NCBI GenBank assembly: GCA_043228905.1
Contig: JBHGNT010000017.1
Span: 9,238,001 to 9,302,000 of the forward strand
DNA length: 64,000 bases
Direction of reading: 5' to 3'
From: Azolla caroliniana
Taxonomy: Eukaryota > Plantae > Polypodiophyta
Shown: in pieces, positions 3,001-54,348 of the stretch
Layout of the letters: the number at the start of each line of letters is the position of its first letter
How positions within the stretch are numbered: position 1 is the first letter of the stretch
Program-made: the position numbers and the translations under genes
Notes under the pieces: generated by a model
What the model was told of the DNA's origin: nothing
The model's input: only the letters and a program-made list of their open reading frames with translations
Database searches by the model: none

Positions 3001-3240
3001 TTCTTCTGTTATTACCTGTACCTTGGACTTCCCCCGGCGGAAGGAGATCATATTACGCTGCCAATGTTGTTTAATATTTGCTGTGCGCAGCCAGGGTCGG
3101 CCAAGCAGCATTGGGTAAGTGCTCGGAGCTTCGAGGCGTAACACGACTACCGAGATAGTGAACATGTGGCCGCCTAACGTGAAATCAAGGTGGCGGATTA
3201 ACTTGATGGGGCGAACCGATCGCGTATCGGCCATCCACAA
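1..3240 (-). pseudogene. Gypsy pol (protease-RT-RNase H-integrase), frameshifted/stop-interrupted
   Basis: ORFs 2809-3240, 1603-2703 (VDYRKLN, FLDGFSGYNQI, FLDDF), 1351-1578 (YYASRRL..NYSTTEREAL), 1024-1347, and integrase core at 430-800 (WGLDFVGP, DYCTKWVEA). Confidence 0.9.
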
Positions 3241-3490
3241 CCAAAAGGGGCATTCACGGTTGGATTCTGGGAATCCATGAGGGGTGGGCCCGTCCCTGGC
3301 TCCGTCATGTTAATAGGGGGTGTGACCGATATGTCGTTAGCCGTGAGCTTAGCCAAGGTATCCTGAAAGCGCTGCATGAGGGGTAACAACTTATGTAATG
3401 GCAACGAGATCCTAACGCTTGTAAGGGCTTCCCATAGATGGTCATCTTTTGCCGTGGTGAATGGTCCTGCGACCGGTGCTGCATCGATGG

Positions 3491-5124: not shown

Positions 5125-5198
5125 CGTAATGGCGGTTGGGGTTTGCTTCCAACATAGTTCGCTGTGATCTTACAACTATAACCGGGCGTGCCAAATTG

Positions 5199-5684
5199 TG
5201 TTAACCGTTTCTGGGGGAACACCTTCGATGAGCCCACAGGCTATCAGTGTCAAGGGATCGTGTTACGTGGAAGCCTCTTCTACACGGGGGAAAAGAAAGG
5301 AGAACGAGGAGCGTACACGGGCTACAACCCATTAGGTATAAACACAGCTCGATTTATGAGTACAGGGAGAATACACAGATAGAAGATTAGAAAAAATGAA
5401 ACTTATATTAAATGATAAAGCTCACAGTGATTACAGTACTCGGCTCTTAGCCGGAAATAGTTCGTACAAAGCTTGCTGCTAGGATATTACTCTCGCTAAG
5501 AATGATCTAGATAATCCCCCCCTTGGGTTATGCATAACTCGGGTTATATAGTTTTCCTCTTGAGACCGAGCCGAGCCATCGGCTGATTGTGAGGGCTAAA
5601 ACACGGCTATCTATTTCCTCACCTACTCTTCTACCTAACGACGAGTTTACATAATGTATTTATATTTCTGGCCTATGGACAACA
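5199..5684 (-). repeat. 5' LTR of the Gypsy element
   Basis: TGTT...AACA termini, with the PBS adjacent at 5181-5193. Copia coding sequence resumes at 5685 (ACAATGAGTACATGG, compare 8862). Confidence 0.75.
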
Positions 5685-7880
5685 ACAATGAGTACATGGC
5701 GCATCACTATGCATACATGACCAAAGTGGCGGAAGTGTGTGAGCCGGAGAGCTACGTAGAAGCGGCAAAGGATGCAAATTGGCGTGCCGCTATGGAAGAA
5801 GAAATGCGGGCACTCTATGCCAACAACACATGGGACCTCATTGACCCTCCCCGACACTGTAAACCGATCGGTTGCAAATGGGTGTACAAGGTAAAGTACA
5901 ATGCCGACGGTTCGGTCAACCAGTACAAGGCCCGATTAGTGGCGAAGGGCTACGCACAGACCCACGAAATCGACTACGAAGAAACCTTCGCTCGGGTAAC
6001 GAAGATGACGACGGTTCGTGTGGTGCTGGCGGTTGTTGCGGCAAGGGGGTGGCATCTTCACCAGATGGACGTGAGGAATGTGTTTCTTCAAGGTGACCTT
6101 GAAGAATGGCTCTATATGATCCAACCTCCCTGTTTTCAGTCGGAGATGAACAAGTTGGTGGTGTGTTGGCTTAAGAAGTCGCTTTACGGTTTGAAACAAG
6201 CCCCTCGCGCTTGGAATGCGAAGATCACGCACCAGTTGTATAAGATGGGGTTTGTGACCTCTAAATCCGACTCATCGTTGTTCATCTGGCAAGGTCCGGA
6301 CGGTTCGGCTTGCATCTTACTTTATGTAGATGATTTAGTCATCACCAGACCCGGACTCAATGAAATTGGCCGTGTCAAGGCCCAACTATCGGACGCATTT
6401 GAGATGAAGAACCTCGGGGACCTTCATTATTTCCTTGGGATCGAGGTGATCAGAACCCCCGACGACATATTGCTCTCACAACGCCATTATGTGTTCGGCA
6501 TGACGGAATGCTGACCGATCTCTAAACCCCTAGACCGGAACCTGAAGCTACGTCCCGACTCCGGACCGGCCTACAATGAGAAACACTTCTGACAAATTGT
6601 CAGAAGCCTTATCTACTTGATGATCACTTGACCCGACATCAGTTATCTAGTCGGAGTGATCAGCCAGTTCATGCAGACGCCGACTGTCAACCATCTTCAT
6701 TGCGCACACCGGATACTCTGGTATGTTAGCGATACGAAGAACCGAGGACTGTTATACTGACACGGTATAACTGGGAAGCTAGTCGGATATAGCGATGCCG
6801 ACTAGGCTAGTGATGCATCGGATCGCCGATCCACCTCCGGTTACATGTTTTCTCTTGGTAGCGTGGTTGTTGCGTGGAGCAGCAAAAAGCAGCCAACAGT
6901 GGCTCTGTCGATCATTGAGGCTGAATACCGAGATGCTACCATTGCCACCTATGAAGCCATCTGGCTTCGGCGACTGCTGTAAGACCTGCGAATTGAGGTA
7001 CCGACCCCGATCTTGATGTACTGTGAGAAACATTCAGATCGCCGAGAACCCCAATTCTGATCTTTTGCGGATTGAGGTACCGACAACATGAGCAACATTC
7101 AACTCGCCAAGAACCCCATGTTCCATGGTCGGACGAAGCACATAGAAGTCCACTATCACTTTGTGTGTGAGGGGGTTTTGAGCGGTGAAGTCAAACTTCG
7201 GTATGTTTAGATGGATCGGCAAGTTGCCGACATCTTCACCAAACCGCTCGAATTGGCCAAGTTGTAGCACTTCACCGAAATGCTTGGTGTACAACATCTC
7301 GATATGCCGCACTTGAGGGTGAGACTTGGAACGGGCAAAGGATTTGGTGATGGCACCGGACTAAGAGCTAGAGAGGAAGAAAGAACCAAAGGGGGAGGTT
7401 AGCAGAAAAAGGGAGCCGAGTCGACCGATTGAGTCGGCACATCTGAACAAGTCGGAGCAAGCGGCAGCGACAGTAGAGTCAAGAAGGACAGAGCTGACCG
7501 GAAGAAGGCCAAGAACCGGACATGGTTTGATGTGGTGAAGGATCTGAAACCGGGATACCAGTTGGAGAACACCGATTCAGACAAGAGCTGGAACGAATCG
7601 GAGGAAACCGATTCGATTCAAGATTCGGAGAAGCCGGATTAACTAAAGGCCCAATGGACATGGACGCAACGGAAGTTGATGCCAACACGAAGGAACCGAC
7701 GGGTCGACAAGCGCCGGAGTTGCAACAACGAGGGAGCTGAAATGGGCAAATCATTGATCCGGGGATGCAAGTTCGATCCATGCATCTCGAGTGCTTCATC
7801 GAGGAAGAGGGCCAACTCATCGTGTAAGGGGGCCGAAACGGGAGGATGTCCATCCTCGACACTAATGACGTCGGCACCGC
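5685..7880 (+). pseudogene. Ty1/Copia RT-RNase H module (copy 1) with charged 3' tail
   Basis: [52 protein letters not shown]; multiple stops. Confidence 0.9.
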
Positions 7881-7884
7881 TCGA

Positions 7885-10627
7885 CTATTTCCGGAACTTG
7901 CACAGTCTTGTTGAATGGGAAACAAAGAGGAAGATCAAGTGGTTGCAGTCAAATGACAAGAAAGAGTATTTTTCTGGCCAATTCAACACCTATCTGCAAT
8001 AGAAGGGAATTCAACGAGAATTCAGCTACAGGTATACGCCAGAACAAAACGGTGTAGCCGAGAGGAAGAACCGGTCAGTTGTAGAAGCGGCACGGGCACT
8101 GTTGGAGGAGAAGAGCATGCCCAAGTTCTATTGGGCCGAAGCGGTCCGGACGACTGTCTACATCCAAAACCGGATCGGGGAGGAGGTGTCAGCACACAAG
8201 CTATATTTTGGGCAGAAACCAAACTTACGACACTTGAGGATATTCGACAGCATTGTCTATGTGCATGTACCGGATGAGAAGCGGAGGAAGTTGGACCCGA
8301 AGTCGGAGAAGTGCATTTTGGTTGGCTATTTACACGAACATAAGGGGTATAAGTGTTATAACCCCCGCACAAAAGAAGTTTGAGTAAGCCAAGACGTCCA
8401 GTTCGATGAGTCGACATCATGGTACTCTTTACCAACTCTGACCCCCGACAACTCCGACCATCGGATTCCGGAAGATGAGGCTAGTGAGCCAGAAATGATC
8501 CGGGCAGAAGAAGAGTTCGGCACTCTGGAAGAGAGTCCGATTTCATTCCGGCTGAGTGGGCCGAATGAAAGACTGAGTCGGAATGACCAGTCGGATGAGG
8601 AGTCAACGAGTAGTGAAGACTCAGTTATGTTGTCCCCATGCAAGGAACCAAGGAGGCAGTTCATGCGCAAAGAGAAGGGGAAGAAGATGCCGGAATATGA
8701 CACCGACAGAGACGAGCCGGATCAGAGCGAAATCAACTCTAGAAAGAACAAGGAAGGACTTTCGGAGACGAAGTCCGAGTCGGCCAAAAGGGCTCTTAAA
8801 TCGGCCAACGAGAAGTTATGCCGATCGACTTGCCAAAAGAATCCCGTGAAGGAGTATGGGTATAATGAGTACATGGCACATCACTATGCGTATATGACGA
8901 AAGTGGCGGAAGTGCATGAGCCAGAGAGGTATGTAGAAGCGGCAAAAGACGCGAATTGGCATGTTGTGATGGAGGAAGAAATGCGGGCACTCGATGCCAA
9001 GCGACACTAGGACCTGGTTGACCCTCCCCGACATTGCAAACTGATCGGCTGCAAATGTTATACAAGATAAAATATAATGCCGATGGTTCGGTCAACCGGT
9101 ACAAGGCCCGGTTAGTGGCCAAAGGATATGCGTAGACCCACGGAATTGACTACGACGAGACCTTCGCTCTAGTAGCAAAGATGACGACGGTTCGTGTGGT
9201 GTTGGCAGTTGTTCTAGCAAGGGGGTGAAAATTTCAACAAATGGATGTGAAGAATGCGTTTCTTCAAGGCAACCTTGAAGAACAAGTCTGTACATGATTT
9301 AGCCCCCCCCCCCCCCCGTTTTTGGTCGAAGATGAAGAAGTCGGTAGTGTGCCGACTCAAGAAGTCGCTTTATGGCCTAAAGCAAGCTCCCTGTGCTTGG
9401 AATTCGAAGATAACACACTGGTTGCGTAAGATGGGGTTTGTGGCATCGAAGTCCTACTCTTCATTGTTTATCCGAAAGGGTCTGAAAGGTCCAGTATGCA
9501 TTTTGTTGTATGTCAACGACTTAGTCATTACCGGACCCAACCTCCCTGAAATCGGTCGAGTGAAGTCCCAACAATCGAGCGTGTTCGAAATGAAGGACCT
9601 GGGGGACCTTCATTACTTCCTCGGGATCAAAGTGATCCATTCCCCCGACGACATATTGCTATGTCAGCGACGCTATGTGCTGAATATGATGTACAAGTTC
9701 AGCATGACCAAATGTTGATCGGTCTCGACATCCCTGGACCGGAACCTCAAGTTGTGTCCCAATTCTAGACCAGCTTGCAATGAGAAATAGTTTTGACAAC
9801 TTGTCGAACGCCTTATATACTTGACAATCACCCGACCCAATATCAGCTATCTGGTCGGGGTGATCAACTAGTTCATGCAGAAGCCGATCGTCGAGCACCT
9901 TCAGTGCGCGCATCGACTATTGCGATATGTCTCTGGCACTAAGGATCGGGATTGTTGTATTGACACGGTATAACCGAACAGTTAGTTTGTTATACAAATG
10001 CCGATTGGGCCTGTGATGCGTCAGATCGTCAGTCAACATCCGTTTTTATGTTTTCTCTAGGTAGTGTGGATGTTGTGTGGAGCAGCAAGAAGCAACCAAT
10101 AGTGGCTCTATCAAGCACTAAGGCCGAGTATCGTGGAGCTACTGTCACGACCAGTGAAGCCATATGGCTTCGACGGATGTTGCAAGACCTCTGGATCAAA
10201 GTACCGACTCTGATCCTGATCTACTGTGACAACATCAGTAGCATGTAGCTTGCCAAGAACCCCGTGTTCCATGCTCGGACGAAGCACATGGAAGTGCATT
10301 ATCACTTTGTGCACGAGCGGGTCTTGAGCAGTGAAGTCAAACTCCAATATGTTCGAACAGGCCGATATCTTCAGCAAGCCACTCGGACATGGTCTGATCT
10401 GGTAAAGGGCCTGGAGGATGAGGACGAGTTGGAGGCAGCCAATTCGGAAGAGGCGTTCGATTTGGAGGAGCCAAATCAACTGAAGGCCAAATGGATGAGA
10501 AGGCAACGGAAGTCGACACCGACACGGAGCAACTGACGGGTCGAGAAGTGCCGAAATCGCAACAATGAAGGAGGTGAGATGGGCCTTATGAGCAGGCACG
10601 CCGATTAGAAGGGTCGAGGAGTGCGAG
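7885..10627 (+). pseudogene. Ty1/Copia integrase-RT-RNase H module (copy 2), interrupted at 10628 by a Gypsy insertion
   Basis: TPEQNGVAERKNR, FYWAEAV, KLDPKSEKCILVGY, LKKSLYGLKQAP, WSSKKQPIVALS. Continues at 26284. Confidence 0.9.
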
Positions 10628-11123
10628 TGTCAGGAATAGTACTAAACAGAGAGCGAATTAATACTAGAGAAGAGAAGTACTGTCAGGAATAGTACTAAAT
10701 AGGGAGAGAATTAGTATTAGAGAAGAGAAGTAATATTAGTACTAAGAGGATGGGACTGCATAAGATTCCCGAGAGAGGAAGAGAGAAGAGGAGAGAGAGA
10801 GAGATAGCGAGAATGAGAGAGAGAAAGATGATGACAATAGCTAATATATTATGTGAAAGATAAGTACAAAGTGGCTAAGAGGCTTAAGACTGGCATTGAA
10901 CCAATTTGGTTCAAAACAATGCCTTGTGCCTCCTTTTATAGTGTTTTTAGGAATAATCCTAAAGCTTCTAGAATGTTCCGGAGAGATCTGGAATATACAT
11001 CAATTTTTTATGATAAAACATAAATGAAAATAATATCCTACAAATTACAATTCATAGTCTGATGGTAAGAGCTCGACCCATGCAGCATAAGGTCATGGGT
11101 ACAACTCTTGCCATATCATGACA
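10628..11123 (-). repeat. 3' LTR of chromovirus A
   Basis: Near-identical to 25755-26278; TGTCA...TGACA; internal ~53-bp direct duplication and (GA)n tract. Confidence 0.95.
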
Positions 11124-11133
11124 CTATCTCCCC

Positions 11134-12356
11134 CTTAAAGACGACGAGTGGAACGAGTCGGCGCTGGCGCTAATTGTGGACCGGGTTTGTCCGGATACTA
11201 TCGGTGGAAATCAGCAAGAAGATCCTGAGCATTAGCAACATGCTCGATGGGTTCCCAAGTACATTCGCTTGGACTATAACCGAGCCAATCGACCAAATAG
11301 TAAAGTTTGTTGCGAACAAGTTTGGAATCAAGGATGGTAGCAACTTCATACTCCGGGCCGGCGTCCAACTCCAGGGGCGGCGGCGGCGGTGTAACACGAT
11401 TGGGAATGGTGTTTGCTTTATAAGGTTCAAGAAGAGAACAATGGAAAACCGGATGTATCTGAAGCTGCGGAGGGAGATCAAGGCGGAATGTGACATCATT
11501 AACCTTACCCGTAATACGGAAAGGACCGAGTCGTCGATAATCCAACTTGTCACACGGTCGAGTAGTCTTTGATGTGACGACGTAAGAGCCATACTCGATC
11601 TCCGATGGCAAAAGAGGAGGGAATCCGATGACGATCCGCATAAGTCTTCTGTGTGTGTTGAGCATGATGAAGGTGAGTAGAGAGATCCATTTGGATCTTG
11701 CGTAGCCTCTCCAAATGATCCTCGGCACGAGGGTTGGTAGGTAGCTCCGGGGTGTCGATCACCGACCAACGAGGATGAAAACGGGTATAAGCGAAAAATG
11801 GGGAGACCTAAGTCGAGGAGTGAATAGCATTATTATACGCAAACTCCGCAAAGTGGAGAATCTCAGCCCAATCGTCATGTTGATAACTCAGGAAACACTG
11901 GAGAGGTTGTTCTAGTGTTTGGTTTGTTTGTTCCGCCTGCCCATCGGTCTGGGGATGGTAGCCGGAGGAGAGGTTGCAAGAGACCTTGAGCATCTTGAAG
12001 AGATATTGCCAAAATTTGGAGACGAATTGAGGTCCTCGGTCACTAATGATACTGTCTGGGAGGCCGTGATGGCGAAATACCTCACGCATGACGAGGGTGG
12101 CGGTTTCCTCGCTAGTGATGACCTTAGTACACGGCACAAAATGTGCCATCTTCGTATATCGATCAACGACAATTAAGATAGCATCAAACCCTTTCGAGAC
12201 CGGTAGATCAGTGATAAAATCAAGACAAATAGATTGCCATGGCTTACTTGGAATCGGTAAGGGTTCCAACAAGCCATATGGATGGTGTTGTGGCATCTTT
12301 GCTCGACAGCAAGAATCACAGGTCCAAACGTAGTCATCGACAAAACGGCGCATGTG
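11134..12356 (-). pseudogene. Integrase + chromodomain of chromovirus A
   Basis: PWQSICLDFIT, ISDRGPQF, YHPQTDGQ, GPF motif, EYEVATILDSK...YYLVDWLGY...TWEP. Confidence 0.93.
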
Positions 12357-12482
12357 GGGCCATTTGTGTAATTAGCATAAATGGTAGTTGCCCTAAGTCG
12401 GTCACTATATATAGTGACCTTGTAACCTTTTTGTAAGGTTGGTTGTATTGTTGTTTTTCTATGGAATAGAAAGTCTTGTGTG

Positions 12483-12519
<37 letters not shown>

Positions 12520-12605
12520 ACGATCTTGGAAACTGTCATACGCAGGTACTCAAACTCGAATCGAATGCTTCTTGATCTTCCGCATTGACGGCCTTGTCTA
12601 CAACA
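12357..12605 (+). repeat. 5' LTR of Copia (first ~59 bp deleted)
   Basis: Matches 23128-23381 except for (CT)n length; ends CAACA before the PBS. Confidence 0.9.
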
Positions 12606-13300
12606 TCTGGTATCAGAGCCTGCACAGTATTCGGTCCTTCATCCCGCTGTCGGCCGTCGTCTCAGCTTGCACAGCATTCGGTTTCTTGCGTCATTCGAAG
12701 AAGAGAGAAGAAGAAGAAAAACGAGGCTTGCATCTCATCGCGTTAGATCATCTTCGCTTGGAGTAAGCCAGCCGGTTGTACTCTGTTCCTTGTGATCGTA
12801 ACCGCTCGAGGTGAAATCCCCTTGTGCAACATTGACACGATCGTGCTCCACTCGGTTAAACGGCATCCGAAGGGGTCATCAAACGCTGCTCGCCGCTCAT
12901 TGTAACCACTCGGTGCAGATCGGTCTCAAGACAACAACCCAAATTCGTGCTTCATCCGGCTGATCGACATTCGGGAGGATCAGTTGGATCCGTCTCTCTC
13001 GTCGCTGCAGTCACCCGAAGCAGAATCGGTCTAGACAATCGGTTTCAATAATCGGGTATTTGGCATATATATTCGGAAGCGAACCGGGCTCACTCTGACT
13101 CGGCAACATTCGGGAAGACCAGTCGGTTCTGTCCCTCAAGTTACCGGAGTCAATTCGAGCAAGTTCAACAATACATATATCCGAAGCCGAACCGACTCGG
13201 GTCCAAATCCGACTAGAACGATATCGGGTGAGCCAACCGGCTGCACTCCAACAAGGTTCGTAGTCAACTCCGAACCGAGCTTCGTCAACCGAAACCAAAT

Positions 13301-16294
13301 TTGATGGCATCAACATCCGGCTCGTCAGAAATGAGTCTACGAAAGTTCGATGGATCGAACTTCAACTTCTGGAAGGAGCAAATGCAGGACTATCTCATAG
13401 TCAAGGGGCAAATCGATCCCATCGAAAATGAAGAACCTCCAGAAGGATACAAACCAATTGAGTGGCAGAAGCTGGACAGAATCGTCCGCGCCACGATTCG
13501 GATGCACCTATCGGAATCGGTATACTTTACGGTGCAATCGTGTACGACAGCATTCGAACTGTGGAAAACACTGTCGGACACCTACGAAAAGAAGGTCACT
13601 GCAACGAAGATGTTTCTGATTCGGCGCCTCTACAACTTGCGGATGAAAGAATCAGATTCGGTTCAAGCACATCTCAATGAGTACGAAAGCATAAGCTCCC
13701 AAATCTCATCTCAGGGGACGGCAATCGAGGATGAACTCAGAGCAATGATACTCATGAGCAGCCTTCCCTCATCATGGGAAACTTTCGTCACAACCGTGTG
13801 CAACGCGTCAACCACGGCTGTTAAATACTCCGAAGTCACGAGCGCAATCCTGACTGAAGCAGCTCGGAGAAAGTCTTTCGCCAAAGACTCAACAGACGAC
13901 GCTTATGTAGTACAAGGTTCGACAGACCGATCGAACATACGAGGAAGAGATTCCTCACGGCAGCCGAACATTCAGTGAAGACGGAGCCAGTCACGGGATA
14001 ATCGAATCTGCAACTATTGCAAGAAACCCGGACACATCAAAGCCGACTGCCGCGCACTCAAGAACAAGAACGACAAGTCTCAGAAATCAGACAAGAAGAG
14101 TGGCCGGCATGAGGAGATCAATTACGTCAGCTTCTCAGCTGATGTGCTACCAAACGACCCGAATATACTATCAATCGAAAATCCAGTCGGATCAGAAGTT
14201 CTGCTCACGACTGAAGAATCGAGCACATGGCTCTTAGATTCGGGCGCGTCATTTCACGTGACTCCTCATCGATCCCAATTTCGGCAATATACGATCCGTC
14301 ACTCCGACTCGGTTCGAATCGGCAACTCGCAACACTGTGACATCATTGGAATCGGCACAGTAGAGCTCAACCTTGCAGGTGGCTCTACACTTGTACTTCA
14401 CAATGTCCGACATGTACCCGAGCTCTCAAGGCCATTGATCTCAATCGGACAACTAGATGAAGACGGCATTCGTGCCGGTTTTTCTTCGGGAGGGTGGACA
14501 CTCCACAGGGGGAACCTCCTGCTTGCTAGAGGACCCAAGATACACTCACTGTATCCGTTACATGTTACGCTCAGAGAGGGTAACCTGTTTTTGGTGGATA
14601 TTCCTGTGTCATCACTATGGCACAGAAGATTAGGACACCTCAGCAAGGCCGGCATTACGCACCTATCTAGAGCCGGCTACATCCCTAAACTCTCCTTCTC
14701 GGACCATCAATTCTGCGAACATTGCCAGTATGGCAAACAAGTAGCCGCATCACACCCGACATCAGCACCAAGAGAAACGAGACCTCTCGATTTAGTCCAC
14801 TCGGACGTCTGTGGCCCAATGCCGCATCAGTCACTCGGCGGTGCCTCTTACTTCGTCAGTTTTATTGACAATTCGACTCGAAAGGTGTGGGCTTATCCAA
14901 TTCGCACCAAAGATCGTGTCTTCTCGATCTTCTCCGATTGGCTCGCTATGGTAGAAAATCAAACTGACCGAAAACTGAAATGCTTTCGGACCGACAATGG
15001 GGGAGAGTTCAAATCCGAAGAATTCGTCAAATTCTGCCGACAACGCGGCATCCGACGTGAATTTACGGCACCACACAGTCCGGAGCAAAACGGGATTGCA
15101 GAACGAATGAATCGGACAATCCAAGAACGGATAGTTTCCATGCTCCAACACTCCGGACTGTCGGATGGCTTCTGGGCAGAGGCTCTACTCACGGCAGTAC
15201 ACATAATCAATATGTCGCCAAGCAGACCTCTAGGACTTCAAATTCCTCAGGAACTATGGATCGGCAGTAAGCCGAATTACGACAAGCTGAGGATCTTCGG
15301 ATGCGAGGCGTACGCCCTTATTCCGAAAGATGATCGCCGAAAACTTGCACCTCGGTCCAGGAAATGCATTTTCCTTGGATATGGATCAGACGGCGAAATG
15401 GGATACCGACTCTGGGACCCCGAACGCAGACAAATCGTTCGAAGTTCGGACGTTGTGTTCAACGAGTCGGCTATGAATCCATCAGTCGAAAAACCGATCG
15501 AAGTCCGAAGGGTAACATTTTCCGATGTGCCAACCCTTCAAGAAGGCCCCGCTCTTAACACACGGTCAGCTTCACGGGTAGCTGAACCTTACACCACCGA
15601 CTCGGACAACTCTGACTCGGCACAGCAGAATAATTCGCTTTCGGACCATCCGACCACGATACCCGATGCGACCAGTCCAATCATACCTCGACGATCCAAG
15701 AGACTGTCGCAACCTCCGGAGAGGTATTCTCCTGGAATTTTCTTCACCGACGCCGGCGAACCGACGTCTTACGAAGAAGCATCGACATCTGTCGATTCAG
15801 CCACCTGGCATCTGGCGATGGAGTTGGAAATGCACTCCATTCGGGCAAACAAGACTTGGGATCTGGTCGAATTACCTAAGAATCGACGTGCTCTTCCTTG
15901 CAAGTGGGTTTATCGACTAAAAGAGACGTCTGATTCGACCACCCCAAAGTACAAGGCCAGATTAGTTGCGAAGGGCTTCCGACAAGAATATGGCGTCGAC
16001 TTCGACGAGATTTTTTCACCAGTGGTGAAAATGACAACCCTTCGTTTTCTACTCGGCGTAGTGGCAGCCGACAACTTGGAGCTGATTCAGCTAGATGTCA
16101 AAACAGCCTTCCTCCATGGTGATCTTGAAGAGGAAATTTATATGGAGCAGCCAAAAGGCTTCGTGGCAACTGGCCAAGAACATCTAGTCTGCCGACTCAG
16201 GAAGAGTCTATACGGCCTCAAACAGGCACCGCGACAATGGTACAAGAAGTTCGACGACTTCATCCAATCGATCGGCTTCTCAAAAAGCGATGAG
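13301..16294 (+). pseudogene. Copia gag-protease-integrase-RT (5' part); one in-frame TGA at 13976
   Basis: KFDGSNFNFWK (UBN2-type gag), CNYCKKPGHIKADC, WLLDSGAS, LWHRRLGH..CEHC, LVHSDVCGP, RTDNGGEF, QLDVKTAFLHG. Confidence 0.93.
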
Positions 16295-16884
16295 TGTCAA
16301 GATTCGAACTCTTGACACGACCATGTTATAATCTACTATAATGAGTTAACCAAGATATCTAGTACTAGTTATGTATGTAATTGGTCCTTATTATTTTGCT
16401 AGCATCATGTGCATAGTTGCTCCCTTGTAGTATTTACACTTGGCACATGCATGCATACCTACATGCTCTATTGTAGATTCACATGCGTGCAACAAGTGTG
16501 CATGCCATGTAGTATAAATAGAGGAGTTCACCTTGAAGGAATTCAAGGTGAACAAACTGTCACGGAACTGTCACGGATCATAAACTCAAGAGACAACGAA
16601 GAAGATAACCAAATGGACAAGAAAGAATATAGTACTAAAGGAAAGACTCCATAACTGGTGTTGTTCACCTTGAATTCCTTCAAGGTGAACTCCTCTATTT
16701 ATACTACATGGCATGCATACTTGTTGCACGCATGTGAATCTACAATAGAGCATGTAGGTATGCATGCATGTGCCAAGTGTAAATACTACAAGGGAGCAAC
16801 TATGCACATGATGCTAGCAAAATAATAAGGAACAATTACATACATAACTAGTACTAGATATCTTGGTTAACTCATAATAGTAGA

Positions 16885-19066
16885 TTATAACATGGTCGTG
16901 TCAAGAGTTCGAATCTTGACATTATCCCCCCTCTTACGCCGCCGCCTTCCCAAATCGGCCGCTGGTTTGTGGGGATATCGGTGATGAAAATCTTGGACGA
17001 CCTCTGGGGCATTTTGTAAATTTTCCGATGGTTCCCATGTGGCCTCAGACATGGGGTAACCCCTCCATAGGACGAGGTATTGCAAGTGTCGACGGTGCCA
17101 ACGCGAGTCAAGGATTTGGTCGACCTCGTATTCCTCCCCTGTCGTCAATTGCACAGGTGGTGGTGGTGGGGCTTGACGTCCTGGGAGTTGTGAAGCATAA
17201 TGGGGTTCGAGGAGGGAGACATGAAAAACATCGTGAATCCGAAAGTGGGATGGAAGGGCGAGCCGGAAGGCGACGGGATTGATGCACTCGATGATACGGA
17301 ATGGTCCCAACTTCTTGTAATCAAGTTTCGCACATGGACGAGTAGTAGAGATGTGTCGACGTAACAACCAAACCATGTCTCCAACGACAAAGTGTGGAGT
17401 GGAAGATCGATGGCGATCAGCCTGCTTCTTGTATCGTTCATTAGCAAGACTAAGCTCCAAGGATAAATCATGATGTACTTCTTCCAAAATGCGGGCACGA
17501 TCCTCCGCCGAAGGGTTCACGGAAGTGGTAGGAAGGGAAATGTTGAAGCGAGGATGTAAACCGTAGTTGGCAAAGAAGGGAGTGACGCCAGTCGATGCAT
17601 GGAGTGAATTATTGTAGGCGAATTCCGCGAGCGAAAGTAAGTTGACCCAATCATCTTGTTGGTAACTAACCGAGCACCGAAGATACTGCTCAAGGATTTG
17701 GTTGACACGCTCCGTTTGCCCGTCAGTTTGGGGGTGATAAGCGGAGGACAACTTGACAGAGATGCCTAAAGTTTGTAGCAGGCGCTGCCAGAAGTGAGAG
17801 ACAAACTGGGGTCCGCGATCCGAGATGACATCATCGGGGAGTCCATGCAAGCGTACTACATTGTTGAGTAGGAGATGCACCATTCCTTCTCCGGAAATGG
17901 TTTTGGAGCATGGAGTGAAGTGAGCCATCTTCGTAAACCGATCGACAACGACCAACACCGAGTCATAGCTATTGACCAAGGGTAGATCAGTTATCAGGTC
18001 CATAGAGATAGAGGCCCAAGGACGACGAGGACATGGAAGCGGCTGTAGTAAGCCGTATGGCCGATGATGAATGGCTTTGGAGCGAGCACAAACCTCACAA
18101 CTCTTTATGTATTCTTTGACCAGCTTCCATGGTTGTGGCCACCAATACCCCCGAGAGATTAGCTCGAGGGTTTTCGCGACCCCGAAATGACCTGCAAGTG
18201 GGTCATCGTGGCATTCCCGCAACACCCGGGTGCGACATGGGCCCTCTGGGACGTATAAGAGATGATCTCGGAACAACAAACCCTCTTGTATGGTGAAGGT
18301 GTCAAGATCCTTCCTTTTGGTCGCCTTGGAGGGGTTTTGCAAACTATCTCGAATCTCGTTGGCGAACGCATCGGTCTTGGATGCATCAGTGATTTGTTGG
18401 AGTAAAGAATCATCCTGCAACATACAAGTGGCAAACAGATGCAATTGGTCGGGTTTCAACAAACGTCTAGATTGTTGAGCATAAGCAGCATCCCCAGGGC
18501 GGAGTGCAAGGTCAGCTCGGCGAGAAAGGGCATCAGCCTTCCCATGTTGGCCTCCAGGTCGAAATACGATCTCAAAATCGTAGTCGGCGAGAAATGTAGA
18601 CCAACGGCCCTGCCTTCGATTCAAAGTACGAGTGGTGGAAAAATAAACTAAATTTTTATGATCAGTCACTACCTGGACACGATGTTGTGCGCCGGCCAAG
18701 TAGGGTCGCCATTCTTCAAAGGCAGCAATGATAGCAGCAAGCTCCTTGTCGTAAATGGGATAATTGATTTCAGATGCCGTAAATTTTTGGGAATAGTAAG
18801 CCACTGGGTGCATTAGGTTGTTGTCGTCTGCTTGGGATAAGATGGCGCCAATGGCAAAGTCAGAGGCATCGGTTTCGACTTGGAAGGGTTTTGTGGGGTC
18901 GGCATGTAGCAGCACCGGGGCAGTGATGAATGCGTGTTTGAGTGAGTCGAACGCATTTTGTGCCTCCGAGGTCCATAAAAATGGAGTGCCTTTATGGGTG
19001 AGAGCGATAAGAGGTTGTGCTAGGGTGGAAAACCCCTTGATGAAGCGACGGTAAAAATTCGCGAAG
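16885..19066 (-). CDS. Chromovirus B RNase H-integrase-chromodomain (inverted copy)
   Basis: 676-aa open ORF: ETDASDFAIG, YDKELAAI, CHDDPLAGH..CEVC, ISDRGPQF, EYEVDQILDSR..YLVLWRGY..TWEP. Confidence 0.85.
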
Positions 19067-19191
19067 TTCGACCGTACCTCGATCGAATTTCTGGGCTACA
19101 TCATCTCGCCCACTGGCATCACCATGGATATGAAGAAGGTCTCTGTCATTCAGGCGTGGGCGACTCCAAGGCGACTTAAAGATGTGCAATC

Positions 19192-19291
19192 NNNNNNNNN
19201 NNNNNNNNNNNNNNNNNNNNNNNNNNNNNNNNNNNNNNNNNNNNNNNNNNNNNNNNNNNNNNNNNNNNNNNNNNNNNNNNNNNNNNNNNNN
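19192..19291. other. Assembly gap (100 N)
   Basis: Run of N flanked on both sides by the same RT sequence (TGGGCGACTCCAAGGCGACTTAAAGATGTGCAATC). Confidence 0.99.
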
Positions 19292-21476
19292 ATGGGCGAC
19301 TCCAAGGCGACTTAAAGATGTGCAATCCTTCCTCGGCTTCGCAAATTTTTACCATCGCTTCATCAAGGGGTTTTCCCACCCTAGCACAACCTCTTATCGC
19401 TCTCACCCATAAAGGCACTCCATTTTTATGGACCTCGGAGGCACAAAATGCGTTCGACTCACTCAAACACGCATTCATCACTGCCCCGGTGCTGCTACAT
19501 GCCGACCCCACAAAACCCTTCCAAGTCGAAACGATGCCTCTGACTTTGCCATTGGCGCCATCTTATCCCAAGCAGACGACAACAACCTAATGCACCCAGT
19601 GGCTTACTATTCCCGAAAATTTACGGCATCCGAAATCAATTATCCCATTTATGACAAGGAGCTTGCTGCTATCATTGCTGCCTTTGAAGAATGGCGACCC
19701 TACTTGGCCGGCGCACAACATCGTGTCCAGGTAGTGACTGATCATAAAAATTTAGTTTATTTTTCCACCACTCGTACTTTGAATCGAAGGCAGGCCCGTT
19801 GGTCTACATTTCTCGCTGACTACGATTTGAGATTGTATTTCGACCTGGTGGCCAACATGGGAAGGCTGATGCCCTTTCTCGCCGAGCTGACCTTGCACTC
19901 CGCCCTGGGGATGCTGCTTATGCTCAACAATCTAGACGTTTGTTGAAACCCGACCAATTGCATATGTTTGCCACTTGTATGTTGCAGGATGATTCTTTAC
20001 TCCAACAAATCACTGATGCATCCAAGACCGATGCGTTCGCCAACGAGATTCGAGATAGTCTGCAAAACCCCTCCAGGTGACCAAAAGGAAGGATCTTGAC
20101 ACCTTCACCATACAAGAGGGTTTGTTGTTCCGAGATCATCTCTTATACGTCCCAGAGGGCCCATGTCGCACCCGGGTGTTGCGGGAATGCCACGATGACC
20201 CACTTGCAGGTCATTTTGGGGTCGCGAAAACCCTCGAGCTAATTTCTCGGGGGTATTGGTGGCCACAACCATGGAAGCTGGTCAAAGAATACATAAAGAG
20301 TTGTGAGGTTTGTGCTCGCTCCAAAGCCATTCATCATCGGCCATACGGCTTACTACAGCCGCTTCCATGTCCTCGTCGTCCTTGGGCCTCTATCTCTATG
20401 GACCTGATAACTGATCTACCCTTGGTCAATAGCTATGACTCGGTGTTGGTCGTTGTCGATCGGTTTACGAAGATGGCTCACTTCACTCCATGCTCTAAAA
20501 CCATTTCCGGAGAAGGAATGGTGCATCTCCTACTCAACAATGTAGTACGCTTGCATGGACTCCCCGATGATGTCATCTCGGATCGCGGACCCCAGTTTGT
20601 CTCTCACTTCTGGCAGCGCCTGCTACAAACTTTAGGCATCTCTGTCAAGTTGTCCTCCGCTTATCACCCCCAAACTGACGGGCAAACGGAGCGTGTCAAC
20701 CAAATCCTTGAGCAGTATCTTCGGTGCTCTGTTAGTTACCAACAAGATGATTGGGTCAACTTACTTTCGCTCGCGGAATTCGCCTACAATAATTCTCTCC
20801 ATGCATCGACTGGCGTCACTCCCTTCTTTGCCAACTACGGTTTACATCCTCGCTTCAACATTTCCCTTCCTACCACTTCCGTGAACCCTTCGGCGGAGGA
20901 TCGTGCCCGCATTTTGGAAGAAGTACATCATGATTTATCCTTGGAGCTTAGTCTTGCTAATGAACGATACAAGAAGCAGGCTGATCGCCATCGATCTTCC
21001 ACTCCACACTTTGTCGTTGGAGACATGGTCTGGTTGTTACGTCGACACATCTCTACTACTCGTCCATGTGCGAAACTTGATTACAAGAAGTTGGGACCAT
21101 TCCGTATCATCGAGTGCATCAATCCTGTCGCCTTCCGGCTCGCCCTTCCATCCCACTTCCGGATTCACGATGTTTTTCACGTCTCCCTCCTCGAACCCCA
21201 TTATGCTTCACAACTCCAAGGACGTCAAGCCCCACCACCACCACCTGTGCAATTGACGACAGGGGAGGAATACGAGGTCGACCAAATCCTTGACTCGCGT
21301 TGGCACCGTCGACACTTGCAATACCTCGTCCTATGGAGGGGTTACCCCATGTCTGAGGCCACATGGGAACCATCGGCAAATTTACAAAATGCCCCAGAGG
21401 TCGTCCAAGATTTTCATCACCGATATCCCCACAAACCAGCGGCCGATTTGGGAAGGTGGCGTAAGAGGGGGGATAA
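19292..21476 (+). pseudogene. Chromovirus B RT end-RNase H-integrase-chromodomain (forward copy, single-base frameshifts near gap)
   Basis: ORFs 19428-19946 and 20077-21513 are nearly identical to the minus-strand ORF 16885-18915. Confidence 0.88.
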
Positions 21477-21829
21477 TGTCAAGATTCGAACTCTTGACAC
21501 GACCATGTTATAATCTACTATAATGAGTTAACCAAGATATCTAGTACTAGTTATGTATGTAATTGGTCCTTATTATTTTGCTAGCATCATGTGCATAGTT
21601 GCTCCCTTGTAGTATTTACACTTGGCACATGCATGCATACCTACATGCTCTATTGTAGATTCACATGCGTGCAACAAGTGTGCATGCCATGTAGTATAAA
21701 TAGAGGAGTTCACCTTGAAGGAATTCAAGGTGAACAACACCAGTTATGGAGTCTTTCCTTTAGTACTATCTTCTTTCTTGTCCATTTGGTTATCTTCTTG
21801 GTTGTCTCTTGAGTTTATGATCCGTGACA
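21477..21829 (+). repeat. 3' LTR of chromovirus B (353 bp)
   Basis: TGTCA...TGACA, TATAAATA at 21695; reverse-complement copy at 16569-16921. Confidence 0.95.
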
Positions 21830-22875
21830 ATGAGGACCATTGTCTTTTTACCAACACAGCTCACGATGGATCACCCATCTTCCTCATCATCTACGTGGAC
21901 GACATGCTAATTTCTGGACGCCACGCGGGCGAACTTGCCGATCTCATTCGGCAACTGCAGTTGAAGTTTGCCATGGAGGACCTCGGTCCGGCACGACACA
22001 TACTCGGCATGAAGATTAGTCGGCATCGCGACAAACGACATCTTTTTTTGTCTCAGACCGACTATATCGGACGTGTCTTGGAACGCTTCAACATGCAATC
22101 AGCCAAATCTGCTTCAACCCCGCTCCCCATGAATCTTCGGCTCTCTCAGCGAGACTGCCCGACATCCGGTCTGGAGGGGGAAGATATGAAGTCGGTACCG
22201 TATGCACCGACAGTCGGCTCCCTTATGTACCTGATGGTCGCGACACGGCCTGATATCTCTCATGCCGTAGGAGTCGTTAGCAGATTTATGCACAATCCTG
22301 GCCGATCGCATTGGAACGCAGTCAAGCATGTGTTCAAATATCTGGCTGGCACAAAAGATCACGGCATTCTTTTCGGTCCGAACTCAACCTCAGGCGTAGT
22401 CGGTTACACCGACTCGGACTTCGCCGGCTGTATAGACAGTCGGAAATCAACAACCGGATACTGCTTCAAATTCGGCAATGGAGCAATTTCGTGGAAGTCG
22501 AAACTTCAGGAGTGCACAGCGACCTCAACGACCGAAGCAGAATATGTAGCTGCGTCCGACGCTGCAAAAGAAGCCTTGTGGCTCGGCCGGCTGGCGCACA
22601 CGTTTCGGCAAGTCGACCATGACTCGGCTCCAGTTGTCTATAGCGACAGTCAAGGTGCTGTTGCCTTGTCGAAAAATCCAGTTCACCACAACGCCTCCAA
22701 ACATATCGACGTTCGATATCACTTCGTTCGGGACTGCGTCATTTCAGGGAAAATCGGTCTAGAGAAAATATCCACAACCGACAATGTCGCAGATGGAATG
22801 ACCAAGTGTCTTTCGGCAGACCGCTTTCGGTCCCTTCAGCATCAGATGGGCGTAACGACAAACCAGTCCGGTTAG
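21830..22875 (+). pseudogene. Copia RT-RNase H (3' part)
   Basis: IYVDDMLIS, VGYTDSDFAG, ISWKSKLQ, SKHIDVRYHFVRD. In frame with the 5' part once the insertion is removed (SKSDE|DHCLF). Confidence 0.93.
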
Positions 22876-23068
22876 AGCCGGACACAGCGCAGGATGGTTT
22901 CAGACAACCGACATCAGTTCCCTAATGATCGGCTTCAACTCTTCCAACCCGACCAGTCTGGTCTTCTGCCTTCGGACCCTGCCGACTCGAACAAAACTGA
23001 TATGTCCGAGAACCTAGGTTTATACCTGTAATCTTAGATAACCCATGTATACGCCCATTACGGGGGAG

Positions 23069-23252
23069 TGTCGAATACAAGTGTATAATGGATGTATTCA
23101 CACTATCCCTTTGTATAGATCAAGTTTGGGCCATTTGTGTAATTAGCATAAATGGTAGTTGCCCTAAGTCGGTCACTATATATAGTGACCTTGTAACCTT
23201 TTTGTAAGGTTGGTTGTATTGTTGTTTTTCTATGGAATAGAAAGTCTTGTGT

Positions 23253-23295
<43 letters not shown>

Positions 23296-23381
23296 ACGAT
23301 CTTGGAAACTGTCATACGCAGGTACTCAAACTCGAATCGAATGCTTCTTGATCTTCCGCATTGACGGCCTTGTCTACAACA
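23069..23381 (+). repeat. 3' LTR of Copia
   Basis: Starts TGTCG after the PPT, ends CAACA. Confidence 0.93.
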
Positions 23382-24533: not shown

Positions 24534-25742
24534 TTACCTTGTCAAATACATCGGCATAAGGATTTCAAATTTGTTTGAGATACTTGGGCTATTAGTACTA
24601 TGAATACTATTTGACACTCTATTAATACTATTAATACTATCAGACACTCCGAAGGGAAGAATTGACTCGGGTTTAGTACAGGCGACGATTTGATTTACTT
24701 GTCTTCTTGGCCTATGGGGACAATTGATGGCAATATGCCCTGGTCCACCGCAATAAAGACATAATCGATTGGCACGTCGTTGTTGCTTTTCTTCTTTCGA
24801 TAACGGGCCGCGTCGACGCATGGTGTTGATCTCCATCGGTGTCGGAATATTGGCTTGAGGTACGTCGCGTGCAAATGGTTTAGCCGTGACTGAGGCGTAT
24901 GTGGGTTCCGGCCAAGAGCGTGGTATTTGTAATTGACGTTCCAAACGCCGTTCGAAAAGGCGGTTGTCGCATCGGACTGCTCGACTGATTGCCTCCGTAA
25001 GAGACTTTGGTTCTTCGGGGAAGGTTAAAAGCAAGTCTTTGACATCGTTGCGCAAGCCGTAGCGAAACTGCTCCATGAGGGCCTGATCATCCCAGGGGAT
25101 ATCTGAGGCGATTAGACGGAAATCCACCGCGTAGGCAGAGGTTGGACGATCGCCTTGACGCAATCTTCGGATTTTGTTGATTGTCGTCCTGATGCTGTCG
25201 GTATCTCCAAAGCAAGCTTTAAACTCACTAATAAACTCTTCAAAGTTATTAAGCAAGGGCGATTGTTTTTCTAGAAGCGGAGCGAACCATGCCAAGGTTG
25301 AGCCGCTAAGTAACATGCTTATTAGGCCGACTCGAGATGCATCAGTGGGATATCGGGAAGGATGCATCTGGATGACTAAGCGTACCTGATTAAGGAATCC
25401 CCGGAATTGCGATCGCGTTCCATCACATTTCACAGGAAGTCCAATCTTGGGCTCTTTATGAAATCCTTGGGAACTTGATCCTTGTTGTTGCAACGCTGCT
25501 TCGAGTTGTTGTACCCGTAACGCTAACTCCCCATGTTGTTGTTGCGTTTGTTGTTTTTCTAGAGCGATTTGTTGCAGATCCCCTATCAACCGTTGGTTTT
25601 CTTGTTCCAGGGCAACAAACTTTTCTTTTAGACACTGTAGCTCAGAGAAAACGGATTGATATTCTTGGGCGCTAACAGTAGCCATAGTATAGAAAAAGGA
25701 TAGGAGGAGGAGGGAAAACGACAAGTAGACTTGAGGAAGCAA
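24534..25742 (-). CDS. Gag of chromovirus A (coiled coil, capsid, CCHC knuckle)
   Basis: 402-aa ORF with [35 protein letters not shown]. The protease between gag and RT appears deleted. Confidence 0.88.
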
Positions 25743-25754
25743 ATTGGTTCAAAC

Positions 25755-25910
25755 TGTCAGGAATAATACTAAACAGAGAGAGAATTAGTACTAGAGAAGA
25801 GAAGTATTGTCAGGAATAGTACTAAACAGAGAGAATTAGTACTAGAGAAGAGAAATACTATTAGTACTAAGAGGACGGGACTGTGTAAGGTTCCCGAGAG
25901 ACGAAGAGAG

Positions 25911-25964
<54 letters not shown>

Positions 25965-26278
25965 AATGAGAGAGAGAGAAAGATGATGACAACAGTTAAT
26001 ATATTATGTGAAAGATAAGTACAAAGTGGCTAAGAGGCTTAAGACTGGCGTTGAACCAATTTGGTTCAAAACAATGCCTTGTGCCTCCTTTTATAGTGTT
26101 TTTAGGAATAATCCTAAAGCTTCTAGAATGTTCCAGAGAGATCTGGAATATACATCAATTTTCTATGATAAAGGATAAATGAAAATTATATCCTACAAAT
26201 TACAATTCATAGTCTGATGGTAAGAGCTCGACCCATGTAGCATAAGGTCATGGGTTCGAGTCTTGCCATATCATGACA
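25755..26278 (-). repeat. 5' LTR of chromovirus A
   Basis: TG...CA, minus-strand TATAAAA at 26095; followed by non-tRNA PBS GTTTGAACCAATTT. Confidence 0.95.
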
Positions 26279-26361
26279 GCGAGCAAGGCAGGAAGATGCC
26301 AAGAGGAGCCGGAGGGAGGAACCAGCAGACACTAACACCATGATCTGAGCTTGAGGGAGAG

Positions 26362-26774: not shown

Positions 26775-26914
26775 TTAACTGTCACACGTCATCAACTGCC
26801 ATGCTCCATAATCGTGCCATCTTCTGTTGTAGGTTCCCCATCTTGCGGCAATGTTCTATCGATGCCTCACCTACAAGAGCCTATGCTACCCTGTAAAATT
26901 CAGGTTAGTTGCTT

Positions 26915-27068
26915 TGTTAAGGGCATGACCATATCACGTGGTAAGTTTTATTGTAGTATTCTATACACGTGGATAAAGTGTGAGGGTTAAACAAGATTGT
27001 AAAGCAGGAAAGGATTACTTTAATCCTTGGGATTGGAACAACCCATTAGGCCAAGTGTGAACTTGTAG
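26915..27068 (+). repeat. Truncated copy of the solo-LTR family also at 43832 and 61713
   Basis: Shares GTAGTATTCTATACACGTGGATAAAGTGTGAGGGTTAAA...GTGTGAACTTG. Confidence 0.85.
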
Positions 27069-33469: not shown

Positions 33470-34640
33470 CTAGATGGATGTAGCTCAGTGGGTAAGGTTG
33501 CCCGATGGAGACCAAGAGGTCAATGGGGTATCTAGTAATGGAGAAATGTAGAGGTAAGGTAATTGGGTTTGAAACCCAAGACATAGTGTTAACAGTGTAA
33601 CAACTTACCACTAGGGTATGATAATTACAATAACAATGAGGTCAAATGGATGTAAAAAATACTTAATTAAATGGTAACCTAAATGAAGCTATCTACACAA
33701 ACAACCATAAGGATACATATCTAATCATATGCAAGCTAAAGAAATTTTTAGATGGATTGAGATGAACACCACATGCTTGATGTGACAAATTTACAAAGCA
33801 TTTATGTGAGTGTTAAGCAAAGTATAGCAAGTGTGCATATGTTTACAAAAATTAATTCAAGAGAAGTAACAATAATTGTAATTTATGTTGATGATCTCAT
33901 GATTACAAGAACTCGTTAAACCACGAATGGAAACAAATGCAAAACTTAAAGGAAAAAGAAAGATGCTTGATGCATGATGAAAGATATATCGACAAATGGT
34001 TAGAACGTTGATTTATCTTATCATTTCAAGACTAGATATTGCATATGATGTTAGTATTTTCAACAAATTCATGCAAGCACTTAAGCATGCACACATGGTT
34101 GCAATTAAGGAGATATTTTGATATATCAAAGACATGATAAACTTTGGATTAATTTATACTAACAATAAATTTTCTCTTGAGTTACATTGTGATGTAGATT
34201 GGGCATGAGACAAAGCGTCAAGAAAGAGCACAAGTGGAATGAGAGTATTCATTTGGTTGTGCAACATTATCATGGATGTCAAAGAAACTATCAACAATTG
34301 CTTTAAGCACAAATTGATATATAGAGCTACTACCCAAATCACTTGTGAGGTTGTATGGATGGAGATGATGCTCAATGAGCTTGGAGTTAATAGATAAAGG
34401 CTCATCCAAATATTTTGTGATAGCATATAAGCTCTATTAGGTTGGCAAAAAAAACAAGTTTTTCATACTAAGATCAAACATATATAAGTTCACTTACTCA
34501 TTATATTAGTGAAAAGGTGATTGTTGGGGTCTCAAAAATATAAGACCATTTGGCAAATATTTGACAAAAGCTATTCAAAAAAATAATTTCCAAAAGTTAT
34601 GACTCCATGTTATAAATATGTGTTATATGGGGGATTTGGA
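32480..34640 (+). pseudogene. Old, heavily decayed Copia pol remnant
   Basis: Recognisable pieces IYVDDLMITR (33882), DVDWA, SWMSKKLSTIALS, KIKHI; PPT-like GGGGGA near 34628. Confidence 0.65.
33477..33590 (+). mobile_element. Possible degenerate tRNA-derived SINE-like sequence
   Basis: TAGCTCAGTGGGTAAGG A-box at 33481 and GGGTTTGAAACC B-box-like motif at ~33565, next to (GA)n. Confidence 0.4.
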
Positions 34641-54005: not shown

Positions 54006-54348
54006 ATGAATGCCAATAATTGAAGTTCAAATGAATTTGAACATAATCGATAATGCACATGAATGAAGTGGATGATTTCAATTTCTTCAATGATTTCAAC
54101 ACTTCGAGACTGATTTCAACTCTTAGTGAATGATCGAGAATCATGCCAATTGTTCGTGAATGATTGAATCTGTGGTTTGATTAATCTCTACGATGAATGA
54201 AATCATTGCGAGTGATTAATAGACTGTGAATGAAGTGAATGATTTCAGCTCTTAGTGAATGAGTTAGTGACTAGCAGTGAATCAATTTAGTGTGATCGTT
54301 AGTATGATCGTTGCAATGCCATCATTTCACGTAGTTGGGCACCTGCCT

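What the first reader, a model, noticed from the sequence alone, without database searches (positions are those of the whole stretch)
25741..26095. Chromovirus A appears to self-prime reverse transcription (Tf1-like) instead of using a tRNA
Seen: after the 5' LTR (minus strand) comes GT+TTGAACCAATTT, with no TGG tRNA-type PBS. Its exact 12-nt complement AAATTGGTTCAA lies inside the LTR (26062-26051), beginning 33 nt after the TATAAAA box where the transcript should start. Known: fission-yeast Tf1 and related Tf1/sushi-group elements prime from the first ~11 nt of their own mRNA. Inference: this plant Tcn1-like family does the same.
Basis: partly seen in the sequence, partly recalled or inferred. 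Interest (0 to 1): 0.8.

Follow-up and report, generated by a model that had tools for sequence, protein, structure and literature searches.

The report
Self-priming plant chromovirus with priming fossil
A broken jumping gene in a likely non-flowering plant has, instead of a tRNA docking site, 12 letters that pair with its own end-repeat, a pairing its relatives keep with different letters, so the group likely starts copying itself from its own RNA as yeast Tf1 does, which was already predicted in print for this plant lineage.

Summary
Observation confirmed. After the 5' LTR come GT and a 12-nt site whose exact complement lies 33 nt after the TATA box. In the window element plus 42 of 79 related loci, 29 of 43 pair 12/12 and 39 of 43 pair at 11 or more positions, across 17 different PBS sequences (27 two-sided changes on a gag tree). 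RT-RNase H groups with fungal and vertebrate chromoviruses, not with seed-plant elements. Self-priming is likely (0.88), but the transcript start and cleavage were not testable. It is not new: Neumann 2019 predicted self-priming for 83% of 1500 plant Tcn1 elements, and this scan noted the same on other DNA (e1-7364707). Two extras raise interest. (1) The nested chromovirus B carries a junction reading U3, predicted primer, AC, reverse complement of the LTR end: the expected start of a self-primed minus strand. It is unverified by reads. (2) Most related LTRs keep antisense tRNA-type A and B boxes at the start of U3, without a conserved cloverleaf; I found no description of this for autonomous plant chromoviruses. 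Element A itself is dead.

The parts
25755..26278 (-). 5' LTR of element A (524 bp, TG...CA)
26089..26095 (-). TATA box
   Evidence: spacing to primer 31-34 nt in 39 of the 41 scored loci with a TATA in reach
26051..26062 (-). predicted 12-nt self-primer at the inferred start of R
   Evidence: C|A at -1/+1 in 37 of 43 loci
26063..26069 (-). U3-end arm that can hairpin with the primer's 3' half (not universal in relatives)
26043..26050 (-). conserved motif after the primer (predicted cleavage context; weak second duplex with the U5 end)
25753..25754 (-). 2-nt spacer GT between LTR end and PBS
25741..25752 (-). primer-binding site, no TGG
   Evidence: conserved block ends at 25741 in contigs of four runs
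26210..26220 (+). tRNA-type A box, antisense to the element, in the 5' part of U3
26253..26262 (+). tRNA-type B box, 43 nt from the A box start; changed in the 3' LTR copy at 11098
24534..25685 (-). gag with zinc knuckle
   Evidence: Pfam PF03732, PF19259, PF16297
23383..24564 (-). RT-RNase H remnant with stops; protease region absent
12357..23381 (+). nested copia element (TGG-type PBS), itself interrupted by element B
11124..12356 (-). integrase and chromodomain remnant with intact aromatic cage, then PPT (11136-11124)
10628..11123 (-). 3' LTR of element A; TSD CTCGC at 10623-10627 and 26279-26283
16295..16555 (+). element B left end: U3 plus predicted 12-nt primer (16544-16555), identical to the right LTR over 261 nt
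16556..16568 (+). element B junction: AC, 9-nt stutter of the LTR-end complement, AC
16569..19066 (-). element B inverted arm (U5, R, U3, PPT, integrase, RNase H), 98.6% like the right arm
21477..21829 (+). element B right LTR (353 bp); TSD ATGAG on both sides of 16295-21829

Best explanation
Element A is a dead Ty3/gypsy chromovirus of the Tf1/sushi-related (Tcn1-like) plant lineage whose 12-nt PBS pairs with a 12-nt stretch of its own LTR, and active relatives likely use that stretch, as the first bases of their RNA, to prime reverse transcription without a tRNA. Steps: (shown) PBS and LTR 12-mer are complementary and change together across families; (inferred) Pol II starts about 32-33 nt after the TATA box, at the A of the 12-mer; (predicted by folding) the RNA 5' end pairs with the PBS; (inferred from Tf1) RNase H cuts after nt 12; (inferred, with a DNA trace in element B) RT extends that end through the 2-nt spacer into U5; (inferred) the plus strand copies the retained primer, so each cycle rewrites the PBS from the primer, which would explain why changes are almost all two-sided Watson-Crick swaps.
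For: Exact complement at the stated places, 3 of 20000 by chance. 43 scored copies: 29 perfect, 39 with 11 or more and 42 with 10 or more Watson-Crick pairs; 20 distinct pairs average 11.2 of 12 against 8.1 when swapped, 0 of 20000 swaps as high. 27 two-sided changes against 11 breaks, 4 changes to G-U and 3 back to Watson-Crick on a gag tree. TATA spacing 31-34 nt in 39 of 41. Predicted primer:PBS pairing probability 0.87 or more in 27 of 30 RNAs started at the primer. RT-RNase H groups with fungal and vertebrate elements (99/96); grouping with seed-plant elements rejected, p-AU 2e-7. Element B junction: predicted primer followed directly by AC and the reverse complement of the LTR end. Tf1 mechanism as reviewed in PMC7175516 (passage).
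Against: No RNA run held the element, so the start site is unmeasured (a blank, not evidence). A predicted matching change was not seen: the primer variant at 26058 made up 22-69% of depth in four runs, but no partner change was listed at 25745 at the 5% threshold. That site lies 4 nt from where similarity ends and far fewer contigs were laid there, so it is inconclusive. 11 of 79 loci have a family-type PBS but no complement in the contig; in the seven with 270 nt or more upstream, the printed sequence shows the LTR cut short at or near the CT tract or within U5. The flanking duplexes of the Tf1 'pretzel' are weak in element A itself (-3.7 and -5.5 kcal/mol). My anchors fix PBS positions 1-3 and, part of the primer's last five bases, so only the middle columns are informative.
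Confidence: 0.88

Rival explanations
1. A host tRNA fragment (a half-tRNA, or a piece ending in the T-loop, which the primer's last bases resemble) is the real primer, and the LTR 12-mer pairs with the PBS only as a structural or regulatory element.
For: The primer ends in GGTTCAA in 19 of 30 distinct U3/primer combinations, like a tRNA T-loop (recalled). Half-tRNA priming exists in plant copia lineages (PMC6317226). The host tRNA set could not be searched.
Against: 17 PBS variants track their own LTR base for base, which no single tRNA could follow. Several primers lack the T-loop look (L066, L070, L075, element B). Element B's junction continues from the LTR 12-mer, not from a tRNA.
Confidence: 0.05
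2. The complement is a relic of ancestral self-priming or a by-product of template switching, and present copies are primed some other way.
For: Element A is dead. The element B junction could arise by a DNA template switch across 12 nt of shared sequence rather than by RNA priming.
Against: The pairing is exact in high-coverage, open-frame relatives and has been kept through many two-sided changes. A relic would decay on one side. A switch at that point still requires PBS and 12-mer to be complementary.
Confidence: 0.05
3. Chance match.
For: 6 of 3591 internal 12-mers of element A have a complement in the LTR, of which 4 come from one palindromic spot.
Against: Position fixed at both ends, 3 of 20000 shuffles, conserved in relatives.
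Confidence: 0.01

Closest known systems
Plant Tcn1 chromovirus clade (Neumann et al. 2019, PMC6317226; Novikova et al. 2010, PMC2864245)
   Same: No tRNA-type PBS, predicted self-priming (83% of 1500 elements), 5-bp TSD, gag and pol in overlapping frames (intact relative L002), chromodomain with aromatic cage, RT close to fungal and vertebrate chromoviruses.
   Different: Neumann's call rests on a blastn complement of 10 nt or more; the main text passages and the supplements I could read give no co-variation or junction evidence (Additional files 1 and 3 were too large to read). Their hosts were moss and club-moss; this host is unidentified. No named Tcn1 sequence was in my tree.
Tf1/Tf2 of Schizosaccharomyces pombe, Tj1, Tosmo1-3 (Tf1/sushi group)
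   Same: 5'-end primer complementary to the PBS, TATA-proximal start, predicted flanking duplexes.
   Different: Tf1's primer is 11 nt and was shown by experiment; here it is 12 nt in most families (10-11 in distant ones) and only predicted. The flanking duplexes are weak in element A.
Helenus, Ajax and Cassandra TRIMs (Kojima 2024, PMC10886601)
   Same: Small-RNA-type Pol III promoter boxes inside LTRs.
   Different: Those are short non-autonomous elements whose boxes are thought to make the template RNA. Here the boxes are antisense, at the start of U3, in protein-coding elements that keep a TATA promoter.

Membership tests
Tf1/sushi group (self-priming chromoviruses) | PBS not complementary to a tRNA 3' end (no TGG) | tested here: met
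   Element A PBS starts TTG. No CA..TGG site upstream of gag in 22 of the 24 unscored loci that had upstream DNA; the 2 hits are in loci with 5'-truncated gag matches and no family LTR end.
Tf1/sushi group (self-priming chromoviruses) | PBS complementary to a TATA-proximal stretch of its own LTR, kept across families | tested here: met
Tf1/sushi group (self-priming chromoviruses) | That stretch is the 5' end of the RNA | not testable with these tools
   No RNA holder listed; only contigs could be laid. Spacing and C|A context are indirect.
Tf1/sushi group (self-priming chromoviruses) | Three-duplex 'pretzel' around the PBS | tested here: inconclusive
   Post-primer/U5-end duplex better than swaps (31 of 20000; 34 distinct), leader duplex 333 of 20000 (30 loci); weak in element A; relatedness not corrected.
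Tf1/sushi group (self-priming chromoviruses) | RNase H cleavage releases the primer | not testable with these tools
   Needs biochemistry. The element B junction falls exactly at the predicted primer end.
Tf1/sushi group (self-priming chromoviruses) | RT phylogeny with fungal and vertebrate chromoviruses | tested here: met
   31-row tree, 99/96; family plus seed plants rejected p-AU 2e-7, family plus seed plants plus alga p-AU 0.003. Root is one long-branch non-chromovirus; references are database hits, not Tf1 or sushi themselves.
Plant Tcn1 clade | RT clusters with named Tcn1 elements (Cryptococcus Tcn1, PpatensLTR1, SM-Tcn1) | not testable with these tools
   None of these was among the named hits listed.
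Plant Tcn1 clade | Group I chromodomain with aromatic cage (Y24, W45, Y48) | tested here: met
   Y...W..Y with the 21 and 3 residue spacing read; definition from PMC3350952 passage.
Plant Tcn1 clade | 5-bp TSD; gag and pol in overlapping frames; about 5.5-9.4 kb | tested here: met
   TSD; L002 gag 181-1476 and pol 1449-5060; L002 LTR-to-LTR distance 5274 nt plus one LTR; ranges.
Plant Tcn1 clade | Host is a non-seed plant | tested here: inconclusive
   Best named relatives of the nested copia are angiosperm proteins at only about 48-51%; cage motif limited to non-seed plants in PMC6317226; host not named by any search.
TRIMp3 (Helenus, Ajax, Cassandra) | Short non-coding element with a Pol III promoter in the LTR | tested here: not met
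   These elements encode gag and pol and the boxes are antisense.

The most novel reading that the evidence does not exclude
This self-priming lineage has a richer LTR design than described. Its U3 starts with a working antisense tRNA-type Pol III (TFIIIC) module that insulates the LTR promoter or makes antisense RNA, and ends in an arm that hides the 3' copy of the primer from the PBS. Element B is a genuine integrated by-product in which an LTR end stopping at primer nt 12 primed a second, co-packaged RNA: a physical trace of self-priming in a plant genome.
Probability: 0.35. Interest if true: 0.65.

Novelty: new member of a known kind. Interest (0 to 1): 0.42.

Why it matters
Among the papers I could read, self-priming is described as demonstrated only for yeast Tf1 and as predicted for plant Tcn1 from complementarity alone. 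This locus adds co-variation across 17 PBS variants, a precise predicted cleavage point, and a genomic junction that looks like the primer still joined to minus-strand DNA. Together these give a directly testable design for a plant self-priming element. If the antisense A/B boxes bind TFIIIC, an autonomous chromovirus clade carries its own tRNA-gene mimic, which bears on how such elements escape silencing or attract other insertions.

Tried and rejected
No whole genome is held, so the genome-wide copy survey and host tRNA search were not done. No RNA holder listed. The viral-contig scan gave no locus. Rfam: 0 matches in the window at gathering score, and no tRNA match on the antisense box unit of element A or in the LTRs of 9 loci. 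The matching PBS change predicted was not seen (inconclusive). A conserved tRNA cloverleaf for the antisense unit was rejected: D stem 52 of 88 against 52.8 shuffled, T stem 70 of 110 against 70.2, acceptor 63 of 154 against 56.6, anticodon 48 of 110 against 40.2. A general co-varying U3 arm is not established: 1 of 20000 swaps with all 30 combinations, 885 without the two B-clade rows, 1932 after removing two more; its predicted effect on element A changes with the window folded. My first reading of element B as an assembly artefact at the N gap was dropped as the main explanation: both junctions lie inside the left contig and the gap's two sides overlap by 35 nt; a chimeric assembly is still possible. 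Host identification by named homologues failed. The 85-row careful tree did not finish (quick tree shown); a 31-row subset was used. PMC1563812 is not held; only its title was seen in a reference list.

Full report
Observation. Element A runs from 26278 to 10628 on the minus strand, with a 5-bp TSD, a PPT and LTRs 5.3% apart. In this copy the complement is 13 nt. Shuffled LTRs gave a 12-nt complement in 3 of 20000 trials. The window's copia and non-chromovirus gypsy have TGG-type PBSs and no such complement.

Anatomy. Gag is open. Compared with the intact relative L002, element A lacks the protease region and about 190 residues where a copia is inserted, and has stops and a frame change. It is a dead copy. 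Its chromodomain keeps the three aromatic cage residues (definition in PMC3350952, passages). A second chromovirus, B, is nested in the copia.

Co-variation. A gag alignment fetched 79 metagenome loci. I scored 42 of them plus element A. Of the 37 dropped, 13 have gag at the contig edge, 13 show no LTR end and 11 have a family-type PBS but no primer region in the contig. Among the 43 scored, 29 pair 12/12, 39 pair at 11 or more and 42 at 10 or more positions. They hold 17 distinct PBSs; own pairs average 11.2 against 8.1 when swapped (0 of 20000). One search located primers by the TATA box and a downstream motif, independent of complementarity; one search added a filter on the primer's last bases, and both anchors fix the first PBS bases, so the middle columns carry the signal. 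Parsimony on a gag tree, with ties broken towards joint changes, gave 27 two-sided Watson-Crick changes, 11 one-sided breaks, 4 changes to G-U and 3 back to Watson-Crick. The primer starts 31-34 nt after the TATA box in 39 of 41 loci and at C|A in 37 of 43, as expected of a start site (rule recalled). Folding from that base predicts the primer:PBS helix with probability 0.87 or more in 27 of 30 RNAs. These loci are mostly collapsed, high-coverage contigs of related assemblies, so they are not independent species.

Sequencing runs. 20 of 22 listed runs hold part of the element, none on record as RNA. Contigs of four runs show no listed variant from 25741 to 25765 and a fall in depth just past the PBS (run X1: about 52,000 at 25742-47, about 1,700 at 25730-35). 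Against my reading, a common primer variant (26058, 22-69% of depth) had no listed partner at 25745. This is inconclusive because that site is at the edge of the alignable block.

Phylogeny and host. In a 31-row RT-RNase H tree, chosen from the 85 rows, elements A and B and their relatives group with fungal and vertebrate elements (99/96), and grouping with seed-plant elements is rejected. The host is a land plant, likely non-seed (and the cage motif). Unchecked notes of this scan say fern. Novikova 2010 found no Tcn1 in ferns by PCR (section 7), but PMC13477047 states that ferns contain Tcn1 (passage), so a fern host would not be new either.

Element B junction. Between ATGAG target duplications, B reads: U3, the 12-mer predicted as primer by the same anchors, AC, a 9-nt stutter, AC, then the reverse complement of U5, R, U3, PPT, integrase and RNase H, then a switch back to sense in RT, and a normal right LTR. 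Primer + AC + complement of the LTR end is what a self-primed minus strand should begin with, and the break falls at that one position of the 353-nt LTR. The left U3 matches the right LTR at 261 of 261 bases and the inverted LTR at 258, so the inverted arm likely came from a second family member. The likeliest origin (inferred) is an LTR DNA end that stopped after primer nt 12 and primed at the PBS of a second template. A switch across 12 nt of shared sequence gives the same letters and also needs the complement. It is not checked by reads, and no second junction of this kind was found in the 79 loci (of 61 motif hits, 2 flagged with a TATA upstream; one is this junction, the other the ordinary PBS of L029 read backwards).

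Accessory structure. A duplex between the bases after the primer and the U5 end is better than swaps (31 of 20000) and clear in distant families, but weak in A. A U3 arm can fold over the primer in A and B. Opening the primer costs 6.9 kcal/mol on average with U3 attached against 2.5 at an RNA 5' end (28 LTRs), which would hide the 3' copy from the PBS. Its co-variation rests mainly on the two B-clade rows.

Antisense A/B boxes. Using recalled consensus patterns, 19 of 26 de-duplicated LTRs have an A+B pair with 3 or fewer mismatches on the antisense strand against 1 of 26 on the sense strand, with spacing 43-44 in 22 of 26. In the 22 with that spacing, the boxes are 65-79% alike between families and the DNA around them 37-39%; stems are not conserved. 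Over 791,872 bases (both strands), 33 of 38 such pairs lie in this U3 position. This fits selection for TFIIIC binding rather than for a tRNA. Against it: A's 3' LTR has lost the B box, the B clade shows at most partial boxes and L066 shows none, and no function was tested.

Literature. PMC6317226 (passages, outline, Additional file 5 whole, search of five supplements; Additional files 1 and 3 too large to read, and these may hold per-element primers) predicts self-priming for 83% of 1500 Tcn1 elements. PMC2864245 (passages, section 7) found neither tRNA priming nor self-priming for SM-Tcn1. Tf1 mechanism: PMC7175516, PMC4600332, bioRxiv 10.1101/2022.12.06.519325 (passages). PMC3601003, PMC8282616, PMC13469084: passages only. 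PMC10886601: passages, outline, sections 14 and 19. Ten searches listed nothing whose title, abstract start or passages read described co-variation, a primer-joined junction or antisense Pol III boxes in plant Tcn1-like elements. Only searches were aimed at the LTR extras, none at the junction, and subscription papers (Levin; Butler 2001; Goodwin and Poulter 2001) were not readable.

Verdict. Real, well supported and of a known kind: a new member of the self-priming chromoviruses (mechanism 0.88). Interest 0.42, carried by the co-variation, the element B junction and the antisense boxes rather than by the basic claim.

Noticed in passing
window 16295-21829: Element B is an inverted-arm insertion without gag, whose left junction reads as primer joined to minus-strand DNA; second junction at 19066/19067; the two sides of the 100-N gap overlap by 35 nt.
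   Followed up: partly
window 26210-26262 (+) and 11055-11107 (+); L001-L077 LTRs: Antisense tRNA-type A and B boxes at the start of U3, conserved with tRNA spacing across families.
   Followed up: partly
window 26069-26051 and 21709-21737: Hairpin arm in U3 complementary to the predicted primer (7-8 bp in A, 10 or more in B; differs at matching positions in L075).
   Followed up: partly
window 12357-12605 and 23128-23381: Both LTRs of the nested copia begin without a clear TG end, and part of element A's pol is missing at the insertion, suggesting a deletion at the junction.
   Followed up: no
window 43832-44266 and 61713-62146, partial copy 26913-27065: An LTR-like repeat pair 17.9 kb apart, 86% alike, enclosing a Ulp1-like peptidase fragment (55392-56000) and DUF7869 fragments (60405-61730).
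   Followed up: no
window 1-5700 (-): Non-chromovirus gypsy with a TGG-type PBS, used here as outgroup and control; other notes on this genome report a similar family with a tRNA end in place of the PPT.
   Followed up: no
L017:128-199 (+): A tRNA gene (Rfam 45.8 bits) with an LTR-like end (..TTGACA) about 7 nt upstream.
   Followed up: no
window 33476-33504 (+): A tRNA A-box-like start right after an AG microsatellite, possibly a SINE relic.
   Followed up: no
window 54305-54791, 62723-62912, 63728-63998: Tandem arrays of 44, 39 and 51 nt; the last is palindromic.
   Followed up: no
protein P0156: A related pol polyprotein (75% in RT-RNase H) carries an extra dUTPase-family domain (PF00692).
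   Followed up: no
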